A model generated the notes under the pieces. It was given only the letters and a program-made list of their open reading frames with translations, did no database searches and was not told the origin of the DNA. Positions 1 to 5,435 of a stretch of DNA of 28,756 nt are shown here, piece after piece. This DNA comes from a virus. Its lineage: Duplodnaviria; Heunggongvirae; Uroviricota; Caudoviricetes. Numbering within the stretch: the stretch's first letter is position 1; each line of letters starts with the position of its first letter. Made by a program: the position numbers and the translations under genes. The stretch is taken from positions 1 through 28,756 of the IMG/VR virus record IMGVR_UViG_2537561604_000016; one strand, 5' to 3'.

Positions 1-1158
1 ATGCTCACCGTTAAGCAGATTGAAGCAGCAAAGCCGAAAGAAAAACCATACCGCCTACTCGATGGTAATGGCCTGTACCTTTATGTCCCTGTGTCAGGGA
101 AAAAGGTATGGCAGCTTCGCTACAAGATTGACGGTAAGGAGAAAATCCTGACTGTCGGAAAATATCCGCTTATGACTTTGCAGGAGGCAAGGGATAAAGC
201 ATGGACTGCGAGGAAAGACATCTCGGTTGGCATCGATCCGGTAAAGGCGAAAAAGGCTTCGTCTAACAACAATTCCTTTAGTGCAATTTACAAGGAATGG
301 TACGAACACAAGAAGCAAGTCTGGTCAGTAGGGTATGCGACTGAACTTGCAAAAATGTTTGATGACGACATTTTACCCATCATCGGCGGCCTTGAAATTC
401 AGGATATTGAGCCGATGCAACTGCTGGAAGTAATCCGCAGATTTGAAGATCGCGGTGCAATGGAGCGAGCCAACAAAGCACGTAGAAGATGCGGCGAGGT
501 TTTCCGTTACGCTATTGTCACCGGAAGGGCTAAATATAACCCGGCACCTGACCTTGCAGACGCCATGAAAGGATACCGCAAGAAGAACTTCCCGTTTTTA
601 CCTGCCGACCAGATCCCGGCATTCAACAAAGCACTGGCAACATTTTCAGGAAGTATCGTATCGCTCATTGCGACCAAAGTTTTACGCTACACAGCCCTCA
701 GAACAAAAGAGCTTCGTTCCATGCTATGGAAGAACGTCGATTTTGAAAACAGGATTATCACCATCGACGCCAATGTGATGAAGGGACGCAAGATTCATGT
801 GGTTCCGATGTCGGACCAGGTGGTTGAACTTCTCACTACGCTAAGCTCCATCACTAAACCAGTATCAGAGTTTGTTTTTGCCGGACGCAACGATAAGAAG
901 AAGCCAATCTGCGAGAACGCGGTATTGCTTGTGATCAAACAAATCGGCTATGAAGGTCTGGAAAGCGGTCACGGATTCAGGCATGAATTCAGCACGATTA
1001 TGAACGAGCACGAATGGCCTGCTGACGCGATTGAGGTGCAACTAGCACATGCCAACGGCGGATCTGTGCGCGGGATTTACAACCATGCTCAGTATCTCGA
1101 TAAGCGCAGAGAAATGATGCAATGGTGGGCGGACTGGCTTGATGAGAAGGTAGAGTGA
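1..1158 (+). CDS. int: Tyrosine integrase, P4-like family; N-terminus may be cut by the window edge
   Basis: 385-aa ORF with the AKPKEKPYRL..DG.GLYL N-terminal signature of P4-type integrases and a C-terminal catalytic region (GHGFRHEF, LAHANG, RGIYNHAQY) carrying the R/H-x-x-R/H/Y residues of tyrosine recombinases. Stop is TGA at 1156-1158. Confidence 0.85.
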   Translation: MLTVKQIEAAKPKEKPYRLLDGNGLYLYVPVSGKKVWQLRYKIDGKEKILTVGKYPLMTLQEARDKAWTARKDISVGIDPVKAKKASSNNNSFSAIYKEWYEHKKQVWSVGYATELAKMFDDDILPIIGGLEIQDIEPMQLLEVIRRFEDRGAMERANKARRRCGEVFRYAIVTGRAKYNPAPDLADAMKGYRKKNFPFLPADQIPAFNKALATFSGSIVSLIATKVLRYTALRTKELRSMLWKNVDFENRIITIDANVMKGRKIHVVPMSDQVVELLTTLSSITKPVSEFVFAGRNDKKKPICENAVLLVIKQIGYEGLESGHGFRHEFSTIMNEHEWPADAIEVQLAHANGGSVRGIYNHAQYLDKRREMMQWWADWLDEKVE

Positions 1159-1390
1159 CCCACCTTAACTATCGAATGACATAAATCCTTGCAATCCAGT
1201 GCAAAGATTTGTGTGTCTCAGTTTTGTCTAATTGTTCTACTAAAAACATAGTAAAATCGGTAACGGCTGGAAATCGTTCAATACCCGTACTATTGAAGTT
1301 ATCTAAGACAGGAGGTTTATTTAATAAATCACTTTATATAAAGAAGCAATTAATTTAACAATTATAGCTATAAAAAATAAATCTTTCTAA

Positions 1391-1420
1391 AGCCGGAAAC
1401 ACCGGCTATTTTTTGTTAAA
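1391..1420. terminator. Candidate bidirectional intrinsic terminator hairpin at the 3' end of the membrane-protein gene
   Basis: Inverted repeat agccgg-aaac-accggct at 1391-1407 followed by a T-run (attttttgtt) on the plus strand. It overlaps the stop codon of the minus-strand gene ending at 1406. The minus-strand reading is less U-rich. Confidence 0.4.
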
Positions 1421-2440
1421 GAAATAAAACAAACCTGTGGTTGATATAAATATTAAAATAGCCGACATGCCTATTTTAATATAGGGCCAAACAATCATTG
1501 TATTTTTATCACTAACGAATACCATTGCCAAAAAAGCCATCAAACATAACAATCCAAACATAATAGCACTTTTTAAATTAAGTCTCAGACATAGTTCTTG
1601 TGCCACTGTATACATATCAAAGTCAACATTTTTACCCACCCCATTCCCTTTAATTTCACCATTAGAACTCCCACTAGTGCTGTCACTTTCTACATTAATT
1701 ACTTTATATGATAAAAAGTTTGAGTGTTTAAAAAAAGGCAACGTTTTGATATTAAGTGGAATATAAATATCATCATAATCAACAGATGATTCTATAGGAT
1801 TACAATGTGCAATCACAACATCATCAGGACTACAATTTATAAGTAATTTTTTAGAAGCTCCATCAAGATTCGCTACTTTTATATTTATAGTGTACCTATC
1901 ACCATGATATACTTCATAGAAACACCCTTTACTTTGAGGGTTGTATTTCGGAATAACCCTTCTTCCTAGAGAGTCAAGGATACCATCAATAGAAAAAAAC
2001 ATCATATCAGGAAATGCGCACCTAACTTCTTCCACCCTACTTTTCCAGTTGCTATAATAATCAGAATCATTACACTCTATATATTTTAAGAAAAGCCCAT
2101 CATCTCCCTGATTACAAATTTCAGCATTAATAAAATCCCCAAGAATCATCCGAACATGATAAAGTTCGGTCATATCACTCCAGTCAAACGAAATTATTTT
2201 CGCCTTCCTAATTGATTTATGGATCAATTTTTTATTTTCATTCATTGTATTTCCTTGCGAAAAATAAATGAATACATCACTACCAACTATCGCTTGCCGT
2301 TGTTGATAAATGCAAGCCTCAACATATTTCTTTTTGTATCTAAAATGAATGACATCACCTTTTGGCAAACTTAACACCTTGAATATATCAGCTTTATATT
2401 GTTCTCTGGAATCAGAGCTAAACGCTGCCATAACTCTCAT
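1406..2440 (-). CDS. Hypothetical membrane-anchored protein; about 290-aa soluble N-terminal domain plus two C-terminal transmembrane helices; AT-rich cargo gene
   Basis: Long minus-strand ORF. The likely true start is the ATG at 2440-2438, preceded by GGGGAGG at 8 nt, and it overlaps the upstream stop as ATGA (translational coupling). The C-terminus carries two hydrophobic stretches (AIMFGLLCLMAFLAMVFV and MIVWPYIKIGMSAILIFISTTGLFYFF). I recognise no catalytic motif. Visibly AT-rich compared with the tail genes. Confidence 0.6.
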   Translation of the reverse strand: MRVMAAFSSDSREQYKADIFKVLSLPKGDVIHFRYKKKYVEACIYQQRQAIVGSDVFIYFSQGNTMNENKKLIHKSIRKAKIISFDWSDMTELYHVRMILGDFINAEICNQGDDGLFLKYIECNDSDYYSNWKSRVEEVRCAFPDMMFFSIDGILDSLGRRVIPKYNPQSKGCFYEVYHGDRYTINIKVANLDGASKKLLINCSPDDVVIAHCNPIESSVDYDDIYIPLNIKTLPFFKHSNFLSYKVINVESDSTSGSSNGEIKGNGVGKNVDFDMYTVAQELCLRLNLKSAIMFGLLCLMAFLAMVFVSDKNTMIVWPYIKIGMSAILIFISTTGLFYFFNKK

Positions 2441-3141
2441 ATTAGAACCTCCCCGAGTAAACATTCCCAACGAAATTTCTTCAGTTTATATATTTCTAAA
2501 TTATCCCTAATTATTCCATCCTGCTTTGCTTTATCGGCCCAACGATTATGAGGATGTACAGTCCCAACTAACTGCCACCCAGCACCTTTTAAAGATGCGC
2601 CTGTTTCACTGCTTAGAGTATAGGTAATAATTTTTTCTCCTCCCATCATTTTCCAGATTGTGCTACATCTACTAATCAGAAAGGAGCAAGTTCCTTTTGG
2701 AGATTTGTCACTGACACATAATCGTGTAATCTCTGCCGTCACACCATCCATGTACGTTGCAGATACGGGATTTCCAACTATCGCTACACCAACCAATTCA
2801 TCAGAATCTATGTGGTAGGCAGCTATAGCCCATCTGCCCGAATTCCTTGACGTTGGTCGATGGTGTCGATGATAAATAGAAACAAATTCATTTGCTTTTT
2901 TTATCGTTATAGGTTTTACATATAGTAACTTCGCCAAAATCCACACCTTGTAACATGATGGTAATATCATCACAACAATACAAAACTTATTGATTTTTAA
3001 CAACCAATTATAATGCCTAACCCCCATAGCACTACTTATCTTGTCTTCAAAAATCAGCTCGCATCCTGCACAGTTCAGTGCATTACGTTGTAGATCTGTG
3101 TTCTGGTCATTTGTTGACACGCGTACATAGCCAATAAGCAT
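2437..3141 (-). CDS. Chimeric ORF: about 37 N-terminal codons of a Gin/Pin-type serine invertase fused in frame to a roughly 197-aa foreign domain, tentatively GNAT-fold / Mom-like (XF1762-family)
   Basis: ATG at 3141-3139 has a strong SD (AGGGGAG about 7 nt upstream). The first residues MLIGYVRVSTNDQNTDLQRNAL..CAGCE..IFEDK are near-identical to the N-termini of Gin/Hin/Pin as I recall them, after which the sequence is unrelated to invertases. The C-terminal part has the pattern ..HRHH..P....G...........LVGVA.VG.PVS........EI.RL............ITYT...E.G.SL..AGW that I associate with Mom-like acyltransferase-fold proteins; this is a recollection, not a search result. Confidence 0.5.
   Translation of the reverse strand: MLIGYVRVSTNDQNTDLQRNALNCAGCELIFEDKISSAMGVRHYNWLLKINKFCIVVMILPSCYKVWILAKLLYVKPITIKKANEFVSIYHRHHRPTSRNSGRWAIAAYHIDSDELVGVAIVGNPVSATYMDGVTAEITRLCVSDKSPKGTCSFLISRCSTIWKMMGGEKIITYTLSSETGASLKGAGWQLVGTVHPHNRWADKAKQDGIIRDNLEIYKLKKFRWECLLGEVLI
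3031..3141 (-). pseudogene. pin: 5' remnant of a DNA invertase gene (gin/pin/cin family), truncated after about codon 37
   Basis: Only the N-terminal approximately 37 codons, including the catalytic Ser of the YVRVST motif, are invertase-like. No continuation of an invertase reading frame of 60 aa or more exists in any frame downstream. It sits about 56 bp from the left crossover site, as gin does relative to the Mu G segment. Confidence 0.6.
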
Positions 3142-3196
3142 GATCACTCCCCTGAATAAAAACCTGGGATGATGCCAGTTAGCCATTATCTCTGCA

Positions 3197-3223
3197 TTTT
3201 CATAAACGTTGGTTTGGGAGAAG
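3197..3223. repeat. Left recombination site of the invertible tail-fibre segment (gix/pix-like), inverted-repeat partner of 5066-5092
   Basis: ttttcataaacgTTggtttgggagaa resembles the 26-bp gix/hix architecture (two 12-bp half sites around a 2-bp core). The 15-nt core ttggtttgggagaag is exactly repeated in inverse orientation at 5066-5080. Confidence 0.7.
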
Positions 3224-3582
3224 CGGCAAAACGGGATGTGGGAACAGGGGAAAATCAGATACCGGACATGGCCTCTTTTGCCAGTGGTGATGGATGGATG
3301 AAATTACCCAACGGGAAAATCCTGCAATATGGTCGTGGTGCGGTTACGCCGACATTATCGACGCAAACAATGAGAATTACATTCAGCATCCCTTTCCCCA
3401 AAAAAGCGGACTGCGCCATGCTTACTCATTCTGGTGATGGCGGTGCGCCTTTAGGCGCTGGGCGGGGATTCATGATGACCGCAGAAGGCCCAACGTTAAC
3501 CGGCTTTAATTCTGCTTACAGAACGTCATCAACCAGCGACACGGTATCGATGAATTACAGTTGGTGGGCTGTTGGTGAGTAA
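3209..3582 (+). CDS. Alternative tail-fibre C-terminal cassette (silent in this orientation); becomes fused to the constant N-terminal part on inversion
   Basis: The plus-strand reading frame runs through the left crossover site (..FINVGLGE..) without a credible own start and with the same GLGE junction as the expressed fibre. A different C-terminal domain follows, ending at the TAA at 3580-3582. Confidence 0.6.
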
Positions 3583-3602
3583 TTTTATTCAGGGTGATTT
3601 AT

Positions 3603-4046
3603 ATGAACGAATATGTTTATAGCGCAAGGCATAATGCTTTTTTCCCTGTGGATATGATTGATAAATATAAATCAGAGGGATGGGATTTATCAGACGCTAA
3701 GGAAGTAAATCAAAATATTATCAGTGAGTTTATGGCTGAACCGCCACAAGGAAAAATCCGTATTGCCGGAGATGATGGGCTGCCTGCGTGGGCAGATATT
3801 CCTCCACCCACGCATGAAGAACTTATTGAAATTACTGAATCAGAAAGACAGCTACTAATTAACCAGGCCAACGAATACATGAACAGTAAACAATGGCCTG
3901 GTAAAGCCGCTATTGGTCGTCTGAAAGGTGACGAACTGGCGCAATATAATTTGTGGCTGGATTATCTGGACGCACTGGAACTGGTTGATACCTCCAGTGC
4001 TCCAGATATTGAATGGCCTACGCATCCGGCAGTTCAGGCCAGATGA
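3603..4046 (+). CDS. Tail fibre assembly protein (alternative copy, Tfa')
   Basis: ATG at 3603 with GGTGA upstream. The C-terminal region (..LWLDYLDALELVDTSSAPDIEWP..) is homologous to the C-terminus of the convergent Tfa at 4018-4620, the conserved Tfa chaperone domain. It converges on and overlaps the other tfa by 29 bp. Confidence 0.75.
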   Translation: MNEYVYSARHNAFFPVDMIDKYKSEGWDLSDAKEVNQNIISEFMAEPPQGKIRIAGDDGLPAWADIPPPTHEELIEITESERQLLINQANEYMNSKQWPGKAAIGRLKGDELAQYNLWLDYLDALELVDTSSAPDIEWPTHPAVQAR

Positions 4047-4620
4047 CATCCGGCGCGGTGCTGGTATCTGTTGCCGTCACCGCGTCAATGTAATCCAGCA
4101 CGGCGTTAAGTCGGGTGGTTTCTGCCTGCGTCAACTTCCGCCCGGCCTGCAATTTCAGCTGAATCAGACTGATGGAAGCCATTGCAGCATCAATCAGTGA
4201 CTGGCGCTGTGCTTCTGCCGCGTCTACTGCGGCGCTATGCTGTGCCTCAGTATCGGTCACCCATTTCTCACCATCCCATTTATCGTATGGAGATAAAGGG
4301 GCGATAGTGGTTGTATTTTCAGGGTAATCACCCGGAGCTTTGATTTCTTTTGATTCTCCTGTTTCTGTGCTAAAGACGATTTCACCACGATGGTCTGGCA
4401 CATATTCCCATGAGTTAAAATCTGCAGAACGGCAGATTGCATAACCAGTTTTGTATGAGCCAGGAGCATCTAAACAGGAACATGCCGGAATGCCGACACC
4501 CACAGCAAGATATTCAGTTGATGTGAAAATATATTCTCGTGTTTCACCATCATAGTTATAAACCGTAATATTTCCTGCCTGGGTGGCGATAAATTCGTTA
4601 TTTAATACAGCGTAATCCAT
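4018..4620 (-). CDS. Tail fibre assembly protein (Tfa)
   Basis: 200-aa ORF whose ATG overlaps the tail-fibre stop (TAATG). The conserved C-terminus ..LDYIDAVTATDTSTAPDVIWP.. is typical of TfaE/U-type chaperones. Confidence 0.8.
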   Translation of the reverse strand: MDYAVLNNEFIATQAGNITVYNYDGETREYIFTSTEYLAVGVGIPACSCLDAPGSYKTGYAICRSADFNSWEYVPDHRGEIVFSTETGESKEIKAPGDYPENTTTIAPLSPYDKWDGEKWVTDTEAQHSAAVDAAEAQRQSLIDAAMASISLIQLKLQAGRKLTQAETTRLNAVLDYIDAVTATDTSTAPDVIWPELPDA

Positions 4621-5435
4621 TATGCAGCCCTCACGATATAATTAAAGGCAATGTTTCGAGGACGGTTTTCGTTTGCAGTTGGAACAACTCTGGAAGCATC
4701 AAATGTTACTCGCTTTGCATAACCACCTTTAATTGAATCAGATGAAGCATCTCCGATGACGCTGGTTGTAAAAACGCCAGAATCAGAAGGGTAGGTATTA
4801 AACCTGACATCCACTAATGCACCAATTATATTTCGAATGGCATCGCCCTGTGATGAAAGCAAGCTACGGTTAGTATCTATTCCTCTTCCGTCATCCCAGC
4901 CACGAATGAACTCACCACGTAAATCAGGCAATTTATTTGTCGGGTAAGCCTTTGCCAGTTCCGGGTATTCTTCAGCAGAAAAAGCCGCACCGTTGCATTT
5001 CAGCCAGCCTGTTGGCGGAGTGGCTGAAGGCCACGGAACAGGGACACCAACAGGTAATGCAGAGCCTTCTCCCAAACCAAGGTTTTCGAGAGCCGTTCGC
5101 ACAGTGCCATCCGATTTGATATCGCCAAACGGATTCTTGCGGCTCAGGTATTCAACAGCAAACCCCGATTCCAGCAATTCAACAAAACCGGGCAGATCAC
5201 CATTATCAAGCACATCCCGTTGCGTTTTATCACTTACAAACTGGGCCAGAGCTGCAGCAATAAAGCTGGCCTGCCGAATAACCTTATTGACTTGCGCACT
5301 GGATGCTTTCCCTGCTGTAAATCCGGATATAAGCGCAGGCAACGTTTCCCATTCCTCCTGCGACATAACATTGGCATTTCGATCAGTTGCAAACGCTTTA
5401 AAGTCATTTTTCGCCATCAGAGTAATACTCCCCAT
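4620..5435 (-). CDS. Tail fibre protein: constant N-terminal part (5093-5435) plus variable C-terminal part inside the invertible segment (4620-5065)
   Basis: The C-terminal region ..[22 protein letters not shown]...[19 protein letters not shown].. is the classic phage tail-fibre/tail-collar receptor-binding signature. The gene is crossed by the right recombination site. The start may instead be the ATG at 5417, which forms an ATGA overlap with the upstream gene. Confidence 0.8.
5066..5092. repeat. Right recombination site of the invertible tail-fibre segment, inside the tail-fibre gene
   Basis: The reverse complement of 5066-5092 is ctctcgaaaaccTTggtttgggagaag, matching the left site exactly in the core and partially in the flank. 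It encodes the shared ..LGLGE.. junction of the tail-fibre protein. Confidence 0.7.

What the first reader, a model, noticed from the sequence alone, without database searches (positions are those of the whole stretch)
3031..3222. Decapitated invertase: only about 37 codons of a Gin/Pin-type recombinase remain, fused in frame to a foreign ORF
The ORF starting at 3141 (strong SD) begins with a textbook serine-invertase N-terminus including the catalytic Ser, but after about 37 residues the sequence becomes unrelated and AT-rich, and no other frame continues the invertase. Either the tail-fibre switch is locked in the present orientation unless an invertase is supplied in trans, or the invertase promoter, RBS and first codons have been co-opted to express the incoming cargo gene as a chimera. 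This marks a recent recombination junction near 3030.
Basis: partly seen in the sequence, partly recalled or inferred. Interest (0 to 1): 0.7.

Follow-up and report, generated by a model that had tools for sequence, protein, structure and literature searches.

The report
Invertase stump fused to Mom-like gene
A prophage tail-fibre switch has lost all but 36 codons of its own invertase gene to an inserted two-gene cassette. The stump still carries the DNA signals the switch needs, so other prophages' invertases can still flip it, which makes this a modest variant of a well-known system.

Summary
On the minus strand, 3141-3034 encodes the first 36 residues of a Pin/PinE invertase, including Ser9. 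Homology to intact pin genes stops at 3034-3027, and no other frame continues the invertase.

A 1.73-kb AT-rich cassette (about 1301-3030) replaced the last 447 nt of pin plus 46 nt downstream. It encodes an XF1762-family, Mom-related GNAT acyltransferase and a 344-aa membrane-anchored partner.

The 234-aa "chimera" reads from the pin ATG across the cassette's former leader into XF1762. The native XF1762 start (TTG 2937, SD AAGGTG) is still there; free-standing homologues are 160-166 aa.

The switch is not locked. The stump keeps the proximal pix site (3197-3222) and the whole 72-bp Fis enhancer homologue (3123-3052). An essentially identical prophage (E. coli MEI1A-0323) has segment 3210-5079 inverted, with the crossover confined to the pix site. 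The junction is not recent: it is shared by two prophage lineages at two integration sites and listed in 612 database blocks.

Whether the fusion protein is made cannot be decided. The leader has lost the in-frame stops seen in free-standing cassettes, which favours it.

Verdict: a new variant of a known kind, of moderate interest.

The parts
3034..3141 (-). Stump of a Pin/PinE-type serine invertase gene: ATG 3141-3139 plus 36 codons, including catalytic Ser9. It is a pseudogene remnant.
   Evidence: Identical to PinE residues 1-36. DNA homology to intact pin genes ends at 3034-3027. Pfam Resolvase covers profile positions 2-45 of 145 only.
3147..3152 (-). Shine-Dalgarno GGGGAG of the pin stump, 5 nt upstream of the ATG.
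   Evidence: Read directly from the sequence.
3052..3123 (.). Homologue of the Fis-dependent recombinational enhancer (nt 19-90 of the invertase ORF). It is fully retained inside the stump, 87-158 bp from the pix core.
   Evidence: The P1 GenBank record annotates 'enhancer of Cin-mediated C-segment inversion' at nt 19-90 of cin. A gapless alignment of cin, gin, pinE and the stump gives 56/72, 54/72 and 70/72 identities over that stretch. PMC3798978 describes a 65-bp enhancer about 100 bp from hixL.
3197..3222 (.). Proximal 26-bp crossover site (pix): TTCTCCCAAACC-AA-CGTTTATGAAAA on the minus strand, core AA at 3210-3209.
   Evidence: Inverted repeat found. The site is conserved in intact pin loci and alignable with Mu gix. 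Exchange maps here.
5067..5092 (.). Distal 26-bp crossover site: TTCTCCCAAACC-AA-GGTTTTCGAGAG on the plus strand, core 5079-5080, lying inside the tail-fibre gene.
3210..5079 (.). Invertible tail-fibre segment. It holds two alternative fibre C-termini and two tail-fibre assembly genes.
   Evidence: Pfam hits to Gp53-like_C, Caudo_TAP (twice) and Collar. The segment is inverted in L001, with 1 SNP inside it.
4620..5435 (-). Tail-fibre gene as currently assembled (271 aa): constant N-terminal part outside the segment joined to the 'Collar' C-terminal part inside it.
   Evidence: In L001 the constant part is instead joined to the gp53-like C-terminus.
4018..4620 (-). Tail-fibre assembly gene that goes with the expressed fibre (200 aa).
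   Evidence: Pfam Caudo_TAP, E 1e-32.
3211..4046 (+). Silent alternative cassette: gp53-like fibre C-terminus (to 3582) and its assembly gene (3594/3603-4046).
   Evidence: Pfam Gp53-like_C and Caudo_TAP. These genes are expressed in the opposite orientation in L001.
2938..3033 (-). 32-codon 'linker' of the 234-aa ORF. It is the former 5' leader/promoter region of the inserted cassette and is open only in the frame of the fusion.
   Evidence: From about 3005 onward it is homologous to the non-coding upstream region of free-standing cassettes. The other two frames have 3 stops each, and shuffles give P(open) of about 0.06. The in-phase frame is closed by stops in L018-L021.
2437..2937 (-). Native XF1762-family gene (Mom-related GNAT): TTG start at 2937-2935 preceded by SD AAGGTG at 2949-2944; 166 aa.
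   Evidence: NCBIfam XF1762_fam scores 168.9 bits (cut-off 50), covering residues 75-226 of the chimera and profile positions 2-143 of 143. 418 homologues were found (120 listed), mostly 160-166 aa, and the aligned free-standing ones start at this position with M/V-AK. The predicted fold is GNAT, with Mu Mom 8bv8 among the top hits.
1406..2440 (-). Partner gene (344 aa), whose start overlaps the XF1762 stop by 4 nt. It has an N-terminal Lon-N/PUA-like barrel, an Ig/MSP-like sandwich and two C-terminal membrane helices.
   Evidence: phrog_30351, E 6e-198. The gene is conserved next to XF1762 in free-standing cassettes. AlphaFold model pLDDT is 86.
1391..1407 (.). G+C-rich hairpin with T-runs just after the partner gene: the cassette's terminator.
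   Evidence: It is conserved in L019 and L020.
1301..3030 (-). The inserted cassette as a whole. It replaces 493 bp of the ancestral locus (447 nt of pin plus 46 nt downstream).
   Evidence: Comparison with the cargo-free argW prophage L003: window 1-1300 matches L003 1902-3203, and window 3035 onward matches L003 3697 onward. The left junction is shown.
1..1158 (+). Prophage integrase IntS (context: the prophage sits at tRNA-Arg argW).
   Evidence: RefSeq annotation of identical DNA in L001.

Best explanation
What happened (shown). A two-gene AT-rich cassette landed inside the pin locus of a lambdoid-regulated myovirus prophage. It carries an XF1762-family, Mom-related acyltransferase and a membrane-anchored partner. 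The insertion deleted pin from codon 37 to 46 nt past its stop.

What survives (shown by sequence and homology). The 36-codon stump cannot make a recombinase. However, it preserves every cis-acting part of the tail-fibre switch:
- the proximal 26-bp pix site;
- the native spacing;
- the complete 72-bp Fis-binding enhancer, which in this family lies within codons 7-30 of the invertase gene.

How the switch works now (inferred). The locus is a switch without its own enzyme. Pin-family invertases from other prophages in the same cell bind the two pix sites, assemble with Fis on the enhancer in the stump, and invert 3210-5079. This swaps the fibre C-terminus and its assembly protein. The flip itself is shown by comparative genomics: the segment inverted after the truncation. 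Which enzyme did it, and whether Fis took part, is inferred.

The fusion ORF (partly shown, partly inferred). The pin ATG and strong SD now read in frame across the cassette's former leader into XF1762. Any transcript entering from upstream should therefore yield a 234-aa protein with a 68-residue, probably unstructured, N-terminal extension. Such a transcript could come from the weak pin promoter or from Q-antiterminated late read-through. Transcripts from the cassette's own leader would yield the native 166-aa protein from TTG 2937. That the ORF is open in frame is shown; which product dominates is not known.
For: Junctions and truncation:
- Stump identity and breakpoint.
- Replacement of 493 bp relative to the cargo-free sister prophage L003, with pin-downstream sequence resuming on the far side of the cargo.
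- No invertase elsewhere in the window.

Native XF1762 start:
- 418 homologues found (120 listed), mostly 160-166 aa; the aligned free-standing ones start at the position of TTG 2937.
- RefSeq also holds a 166-aa version (P0124).
- The leader is homologous to non-coding DNA of free-standing cassettes.

Enhancer:
- The P1 record annotates it at nt 19-90 of cin.
- A gapless alignment places this at 3123-3052, inside the retained 108 nt.
- Fis sites lie within gin coding DNA (PMC3378877).
- The enhancer is 65 bp and about 100 bp from hixL (PMC3798978).

Inversion after truncation:
- L001 matches the window 3223/3223 on the left and 3433/3435 on the right.
- Its segment is inverted with one internal SNP.
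- Outer half-sites stay with their flanks, so exchange lies within 3209-3223 / 5066-5080.
- L009, L011 and L016 are identical to the window in the same orientation.
- Both orientations also occur among torT-site copies.

Supply in trans:
- A composite query gives 2 further places in the MEI chromosomes and 3 in WAT, PK8568 and LH10-b-1.
- 4696 of 5426 E. coli genomes match that query, all but the six cargo-bearing genomes necessarily through its pin 3' part.
- LH10-b-1 has an intact recombinase 2.3 kb away.

Fusion ORF:
- Open only in this frame, with a chance estimate of 0.06.
- In-phase stops are present in L018-L021.
- The extension has pLDDT below 50.

Late-operon orientation.
Against: - No read-level data were available, so ongoing switching within one culture is not shown. 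A single inversion event in the argW lineage suffices to explain the data.
- The extra 'places' could not be inspected, so that they are intact invertase genes is inferred.
- One cargo-bearing chromosome (09A19CPO009) shows none.
- The enhancer is assigned by homology to P1, Mu and Hin, not by any test on this sequence.
- Any 3' truncation beyond nt 90 would keep the enhancer (about 84% of random breakpoints). Its retention is therefore not in itself evidence of selection.
- No sigma-70-like promoter passed the scan on the minus strand between 2940 and 3260.
- Sequence variation in the stump and leader is too low (0-2 differences) to test for purifying selection on the fusion.
Confidence: 0.72

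Rival explanations
1. The stump is an inert pseudogene and the 234-aa ORF is only a gene-calling artefact. XF1762 is made solely as the native 166-aa protein from its own leader and TTG start, and the in-frame continuity with pin is a coincidence.
For: - The native SD and start are intact, and the aligned free-standing homologues start there.
- The leader is homologous to non-coding DNA.
- Several other XF1762 homologues also carry unrelated N-terminal 'extensions' from over-long gene calls: P0017, P0018 and P0033.
- Two of the rare protein variants, P0129 and P0131, have substitutions in the linker.
- The extension is predicted to be unstructured.
Against: - The pin ATG has a strong SD, so ribosomes on any upstream transcript will read through.
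- The leader frame is open over 32 codons, although the composition predicts about a 6% chance.
- The nearest free-standing cassettes have a stop 2 codons before the start and more further up.
- The native start here is TTG, whereas relatives use GTG.
Confidence: 0.4
2. The switch is dead (locked). The two orientations seen among genomes arose by homologous recombination with other prophages that swapped the whole segment, not by site-specific inversion.
For: - Tail-fibre segments are mosaic. In torT-site copies the inverted segments are only 95-96% identical while the flanks are 99.2-99.98% identical.
- The pix-to-ATG interval has been exchanged between lineages.
Against: - In the argW pair, the flanks and the segment are essentially identical: 3 SNPs in 8.5 kb.
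- The exchange lies within the 15 bp that contain the pix core.
- A donor for homologous replacement would have to be the same prophage in the other orientation. The closest pin-intact relative found is only 94-98% identical.
- 20-bp repeats are too short for efficient RecA-dependent inversion (established knowledge).
Confidence: 0.08
3. The ancestor had intact pin followed by the XF1762 cassette, as Mu has gin-com-mom. A simple internal deletion then fused them, rather than an insertion into pin.
For: - Mu has the same order and direction: G segment, gin, com, mom (PMC3378877).
- The cassette is co-directional with pin.
Against: - The sequence that follows pin's stop in the cargo-free prophage (L003 3060-3203) lies on the far side of the cassette in the window (1159-1300). 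It is also present in torT-type copies from 1252. The cassette therefore sits inside the pin locus.
- No genome with intact pin next to this cassette was found. All 6 complete E. coli genomes with the cargo have the same truncated junction.
Confidence: 0.07
4. A sequencing or assembly error hides an intact invertase gene.
For: None found.
Against: - No invertase-like coding sequence beyond residue 36-42 exists in any frame.
- The identical junction occurs in independent complete genomes and in 612 database blocks.
- It also occurs in two metagenome contigs.
Confidence: 0.01

Closest known systems
e14 Pin / P segment of E. coli K-12 (pinE) and sister prophages with intact pinE, such as L003 at argW
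   Same: - The 26-bp crossover sites and the tail-fibre/assembly-gene cassettes are the same.
- The first 36 codons are identical, and the position next to the fibre genes is the same.
- L003 is the same prophage type at the same tRNA-Arg site.
- Inversion of the e14 segment in culture is documented (PMC4272514).
   Different: - Codons 37-184 of the invertase are missing. These include most of the catalytic domain, the oligomerisation helix and the HTH domain.
- They are replaced by a foreign two-gene cassette, so the locus depends on an enzyme from elsewhere.
Phage Mu right end: G segment, gin, com, mom
   Same: - The order and direction match: invertible fibre segment, then the invertase start, then a Mom-superfamily GNAT gene at the distal end of the late genes.
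- Fis sites lie within the invertase coding DNA, upstream of the modification gene (PMC3378877).
   Different: - Mu gin is intact.
- There is no com homologue here.
- XF1762 shows no BLASTP similarity to Mom and falls below Pfam's Mom threshold.
- It is 166 aa rather than 241 aa and is paired with a membrane protein that Mu lacks.
Phage P1 Cin / C segment with its enhancer inside cin ('an enhancer with two functions', Hubner and Arber 1989, cited in PMC3378877)
   Same: The enhancer occupies nt 19-90 of the invertase ORF and aligns without gaps to the stump, with 56/72 identities.
   Different: - In P1, cin is intact and reads towards cixL.
- Here the ORF that housed the enhancer is gone apart from the enhancer-bearing part.
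Cross-acting Din-family invertases, such as Hin and Fin of Fels-2 in Salmonella (Kutsukake 2006, cited in PMC4272514), and invertible regions with no nearby recombinase (PMC9881135)
   Same: The concept is the same: an invertible segment can be flipped by an invertase encoded elsewhere in the genome.
   Different: - Those cases have either an intact local gene plus a second enzyme, or no described local remnant.
- Here the local gene is cut just 18-25 bp beyond the enhancer.
XF1762 family (NCBIfam NF045478) / Mom family (PF25680; Mu Mom structure 8BV8; Gly-tRNA-dependent adenine modification, PMC13219725)
   Same: - The protein has a GNAT fold, with 8bv8 among the best structural matches and giving the longest alignment.
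- It has a helical insertion between the last two strands in the model.
- It is phage-borne.
   Different: - No activity is known for any XF1762 protein, and no paper mentions the family.
- Generic acetyltransferases match the fold about as well as Mom does.

Membership tests
Din-family serine DNA invertase (Pin/Gin/Cin/Hin) - the protein | Complete catalytic domain of about 140 aa, with the Ser nucleophile plus the downstream Arg/Asp residues and the oligomerisation helix | tested here: not met
   Only residues 1-36 are present. Pfam Resolvase covers profile positions 2-45 of 145. The alignment with three intact invertases stops at residue 36-42.
Din-family serine DNA invertase (Pin/Gin/Cin/Hin) - the protein | C-terminal helix-turn-helix DNA-binding domain (HTH_7) | tested here: not met
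   No HTH_7 hit. tblastn finds no C-terminal part in any frame of the window.
Din-type invertible tail-fibre switch - the DNA element | Two 26-bp crossover sites in inverted orientation with a central AA/TT core, one inside the fibre gene | tested here: met
   Sites at 3197-3222 and 5067-5092. They are conserved with intact pin loci and alignable with Mu gix.
Din-type invertible tail-fibre switch - the DNA element | Fis-dependent recombinational enhancer in cis, within the 5' part of the invertase gene | tested here: met
   Met at the level of sequence homology only. The P1-annotated enhancer (nt 19-90) maps to 3123-3052 without gaps. Fis binding was not testable.
Din-type invertible tail-fibre switch - the DNA element | The segment is actually found in both orientations, with exchange at the crossover sites | tested here: met
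   Window versus L001: identical flanks, inverted segment, and exchange within 3209-3223 / 5066-5080.
XF1762 family (NCBIfam NF045478) | Whole-protein HMM score above the curated cut-off, with full-length profile coverage | tested here: met
   168.9 bits against a cut-off of 50; profile positions 2-143 of 143.
Mom family (Pfam PF25680) / momylation enzymes | Score above the Pfam gathering threshold | tested here: not met
   23.3 bits against 27.1. BLASTP against Mu Mom finds nothing. PHROG 1384 'Mom-like' matches at E 3e-38, and many homologues carry a precomputed PF25680 hit. This makes it a related family, not a demonstrated member.
Mom family (Pfam PF25680) / momylation enzymes | GNAT fold with the HTH-like insertion that is essential for activity, plus catalytic R111/S124/R151 (PMC13219725) | tested here: inconclusive
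   The GNAT fold is confirmed and 8bv8_B ranks 6th (E 3.5e-7, TMq 0.53, 213 columns). The model has helices between the last two strands. Residue-by-residue equivalence was not checked.
Known anti-phage defence systems (PADLOC-DB 2.0) | Significant match of either cassette protein to a defence-system model | tested here: not met
   There is only a marginal SduA hit (E 0.009) for the chimera and nothing for the partner.

The most novel reading that the evidence does not exclude
The stump may not be debris but a retained control module.

- Its enhancer would let an enzyme-less tail-fibre switch use invertases of co-resident prophages.
- Its translation start (and perhaps the Fis-bound DNA just upstream) would have been co-opted to drive a fused form of an uncharacterised Mom-superfamily acyltransferase.
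- That acyltransferase would work with its membrane-anchored PUA/Lon-N-like partner as a new nucleic-acid-modification ('writer plus reader') or defence module.
- The module would be expressed at the end of the late operon, as mom is in Mu.
Probability: 0.15. Interest if true: 0.65.

Novelty: new variant of a known kind. Interest (0 to 1): 0.4.

Why it matters
- It is a natural dissection of a classic switch. Everything needed in trans has been deleted, while everything needed in cis (crossover site, spacing, enhancer) has been kept, and the switch has still flipped. Tail-fibre host-range switching in one prophage can therefore depend on the invertase of another, which links the host ranges of co-resident prophages.
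- It warns annotators. RefSeq and GenBank name this widespread 234-aa protein either 'recombinase family protein/resolvase' or 'XF1762 family protein', and neither name describes the fusion.
- It points to an unstudied two-gene cassette. A Mom-related GNAT and a membrane partner occupy the same slot that mom occupies in Mu. The cassette is conserved in several Enterobacterales genera, and XF1762-family proteins alone extend to Vibrio, Shewanella and Bacteroidota. It is a candidate for a new DNA-modification or defence function.

Tried and rejected
- **Promoter scan.** No sigma-70-like site passed on the minus strand between 2940 and 3260. The promoters of pin' and of the cassette remain unassigned. 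A conserved TTGTTA-17-TATTGT in the leader scores only 8/12.
- **PADLOC and sequence search of the PDB.** Nothing useful came back for either cassette protein.
- **BLASTP of XF1762 against Mu Mom.** No alignment.
- **Selection test on the fusion.** There are only 0-2 nucleotide differences in the stump and leader between lineages, which is too few.
- **torT-site prophage pairs as further clean inversion cases.** The segments are only 95-96% identical, so orientation change is confounded with segment exchange. Only the argW pair is clean.
- **Search for other invertase stumps in phage records, by tblastn with spread rows.** None surfaced, so no recurrent breakpoint could be shown. phrog_8275, a 51-position 'DNA invertase' profile matched at positions 1-37, hints that short invertase fragments exist. 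Its members could not be listed.
- **Weak tblastn hit to an invertase HTH at 28047-28112.** It lies in the Q antiterminator/phosphoesterase genes and was rejected as chance.
- **Classic enhancer papers (PMC400844, PMC146962, PMC2752211, PMC4384473).** These are not held. The P1 GenBank annotation and two open papers were used instead.
- **The afdb50 fold library.** It was unavailable.
- **Locating the other invertase copies in the MEI chromosome.** Only their count could be obtained.
Full report
**What is in the sequence.** On the minus strand an ORF runs from the ATG at 3141 to the stop at 2437-2439, giving 234 aa. It is preceded by GGGGAG 5 nt upstream.
- Residues 1-36 are identical to PinE of a sister prophage and 35/36 identical to another Pin-type recombinase.
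- They match Pfam Resolvase, but only profile positions 2-45 of 145.
- They match PHROG invertase families at residues 1-37.
- Ser9 is the nucleophile in Gin (PMC3575834).
- After residue 36 the similarity stops. DNA homology to intact pin genes ends at 3034 or 3027, depending on the relative.
- tblastn with three full-length invertases finds nothing further in any frame of the 28.7-kb window.

It is the head of the gene that survives.

**What replaced the rest.** A prophage of the same type, at the same tRNA-Arg (argW)/intS site but with intact pinE (L003), aligns to window 1-1300 and again from 3035 onward.
- Between these points L003 has 493 bp: the last 447 nt of pinE plus 46 nt downstream.
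- The window instead has about 1.73 kb whose G+C is 27-35% over most of its length, rising to 35-43% towards the stump.
- The sequence that normally follows pin therefore lies on the far side of the insert.
- This makes the event an insertion with deletion inside the pin locus. It was not a deletion between pin and a pre-existing downstream gene.

**The ORF is a read-through into a gene that has its own start.** NCBIfam XF1762_fam matches residues 75-226 over the whole 143-position profile, at 168.9 bits against a cut-off of 50.
- Of the 418 homologues found (120 listed), most are 160-166 aa. The aligned free-standing ones begin M/V-A-K at the position of Leu69 of the chimera.
- That position is the TTG at 2937-2935, preceded by AAGGTG at 2949-2944.
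- RefSeq itself also holds a 166-aa version.
- The 32 'linker' codons (3033-2938) are, from about 3005 onward, homologous to the non-coding upstream region of free-standing cassettes.
- AlphaFold gives residues 1-66 a pLDDT below 50, while the GNAT domain is confident.

Two observations keep the fusion idea alive.
- This leader is open only in the fusion frame. The other two frames have three stops each, and composition-matched shuffles are open 6% of the time.
- In the three nearest free-standing cassettes the in-phase frame is closed by a stop two codons before the start (AAGGTG-TGA/TAA-GTT-GTG) and by further stops upstream. Here the sequence reads AAGGTG-TGG-ATT-TTG, with TTG instead of GTG as the start.

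There is too little variation to test selection.

**The cis elements of the switch are intact.** The proximal crossover site is 3197-3222 (TTCTCCCAAACC-AA-CGTTTATGAAAA). The distal one is 5067-5092, inside the fibre gene.
- The GenBank record of phage P1 annotates the 'enhancer of Cin-mediated C-segment inversion' at nt 19-90 of cin.
- cin, Mu gin, pinE and the stump align without gaps over the first 108 nt. Identities over nt 19-90 are 56/72, 54/72 and 70/72.
- This places the enhancer homologue at 3123-3052, 87-158 bp from the pix core.
- That position agrees with the 65-bp Hin enhancer about 100 bp from hixL (PMC3798978) and with Fis sites inside gin coding DNA (PMC3378877).
- The breakpoint lies only 18-25 bp beyond it.

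A caution applies. About 84% of random 3' truncations would also keep the enhancer, so its retention shows competence, not selection.

**The segment has flipped since the truncation.** E. coli MEI1A-0323 (and MEI2O1-23) carries the same prophage.
- It matches the window 3223/3223 on the left and 3433/3435 on the right.
- Segment 3204-5085 is in the opposite orientation.
- Of the three mismatches in that inverted alignment, two (3208 and 5081) are the outer half-sites of the imperfect repeat, which stay with their flanks. Only one (4789) is internal.
- Exchange therefore occurred within 3209-3223 / 5066-5080, the part of the pix sites that contains the core dinucleotide.
- Three other assemblies are identical to the window in the window's orientation.

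The junction and the 234-aa protein are shared by these argW prophages and by prophages at torT-torS (WP_000905006.1). The cargo differs between the two lineages by 0.7%. So the truncation predates the flip, and the flip needed an enzyme from elsewhere. Both orientations also occur among torT-site copies, but there the segments differ by 4-5%, so those cases are not clean. A contig identical to window 1-3224 appears to end at the repeat; if so, that is what assemblers produce from mixed orientations.

**Where the enzyme could come from.** A query joining the unique cargo to the missing 3' part of pinE was run against complete E. coli genomes.
- It gives two further places in each MEI chromosome.
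- It gives three in WAT, PK8568 and LH10-b-1, and none in 09A19CPO009.
- 4696 of 5426 E. coli genomes match the query, all but the six cargo-bearing genomes necessarily through its pin 3' part.
- LH10-b-1 has an intact 190-aa recombinase 2.3 kb from the chimera.

Interchangeability of Din-family invertases is established knowledge (Hin/Fin: Kutsukake 2006, cited in PMC4272514). Invertible regions without a nearby recombinase have also been noted (PMC9881135). I could not inspect the extra places, so their being intact genes is inferred.

**The cargo.** XF1762 and a 336-349-aa partner, overlapping by 4 nt, form a conserved pair in free-standing form. It occurs in a P2-like phage and next to an integrase in another prophage. 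The partner's 27 database clusters share contigs with XF1762 homologues down to about 31% identity.
- XF1762 has a GNAT fold. Mu Mom (8bv8) ranks 6th and gives the longest alignment, but generic acetyltransferases score similarly.
- XF1762 is below Pfam's Mom threshold and shows no BLASTP similarity to Mom.
- There is no defence-system match, and no paper mentions XF1762.
- Mom itself is now known to use Gly-tRNA to modify adenine (PMC13219725).

The function of this cassette is unknown. A Mom-like nucleic-acid modification role is a lead, not a finding.

**Context.** All late genes run on the minus strand, from the Q antiterminator at 27621-28109 through terminase, head, tail and baseplate to the fibre. 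The stump, XF1762 and its partner follow on the same strand. The cassette thus sits at the distal end of the late unit, as mom does after gin in Mu. Late read-through transcripts would include the pin ATG.

**Comparison and novelty.** The DNA element meets the defining features of a Din-type invertible tail-fibre switch. The protein fails those of an invertase.
- Known: trans action, an enhancer inside the invertase gene, and mom next to gin.
- New here: a natural allele in which the gene is cut back almost exactly to the enhancer, has demonstrably inverted since, is widespread in E. coli, and has its start codon fused to a Mom-related gene.

I rate it a new variant of a known kind, with interest 0.4.

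Noticed in passing
window 1406-2937 (minus); L018, L019, L020, L021: XF1762 (166 aa) and a 336-349-aa partner form a conserved two-gene cassette with its own leader and terminator, found in different prophage slots. The partner has invariant N-terminal motifs (AFSSDxRxxYxxDI ... HFRY), a Lon-N/PUA-like barrel, an Ig-like domain and two membrane helices. Its function is unknown, it is absent from PADLOC, and no literature was found.
   Followed up: partly
L004 7186-10726 (= L013), E. coli LH10-b-1: The chimera is followed by a fibre C-terminus and assembly gene, then two partial tail genes. Next comes an intact 190-aa recombinase facing the opposite way, followed directly by neck genes. This looks like a pix-by-pix rearrangement or deletion between two invertible loci.
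   Followed up: no
L005 8730-9100 (= L014), E. coli PK8568: The torT-site prophage is deleted from inside a tail-fibre assembly gene of the segment to lambdoid early genes. The stump, the cassette and half a segment are left as a remnant.
   Followed up: no
window 3142-3196: The interval between pix and the pin ATG differs by about 12% between argW-type and torT-type copies, although both encode the identical chimera. The argW version resembles the L007 pin locus and the torT version resembles L003 pinE. This indicates homologous exchange with other pin loci after the truncation.
   Followed up: partly
L025 (contig OAVX01000574.1), end of the stored locus at window position 3224: The stored stretch of a public contig that is 100% identical to window 1-3224 stops at the pix inverted repeat. 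If that is the contig's end, it is the kind of assembly break expected when both orientations are present in the sample.
   Followed up: no
L003 3139-3252: In the cargo-free sister prophage, RefSeq calls a 37-aa ORF overlapping the pinE terminator region 'capsid protein'. This is probably a spurious annotation.
   Followed up: no
window 2941-2943 and 2935-2937: Free-standing cassettes have a stop codon (TGA/TAA) two codons before a GTG start. The window has TGG at that position and a TTG start: three substitutions within 8 nt that both open the fusion frame and weaken the native start.
   Followed up: partly
window 27621-28687: A lambdoid Q antiterminator and a calcineurin-like phosphoesterase gene sit at the head of a myovirus (P2/Mu-like baseplate) late operon. 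The prophage is thus a hybrid of lambdoid regulation and a contractile tail.
   Followed up: no
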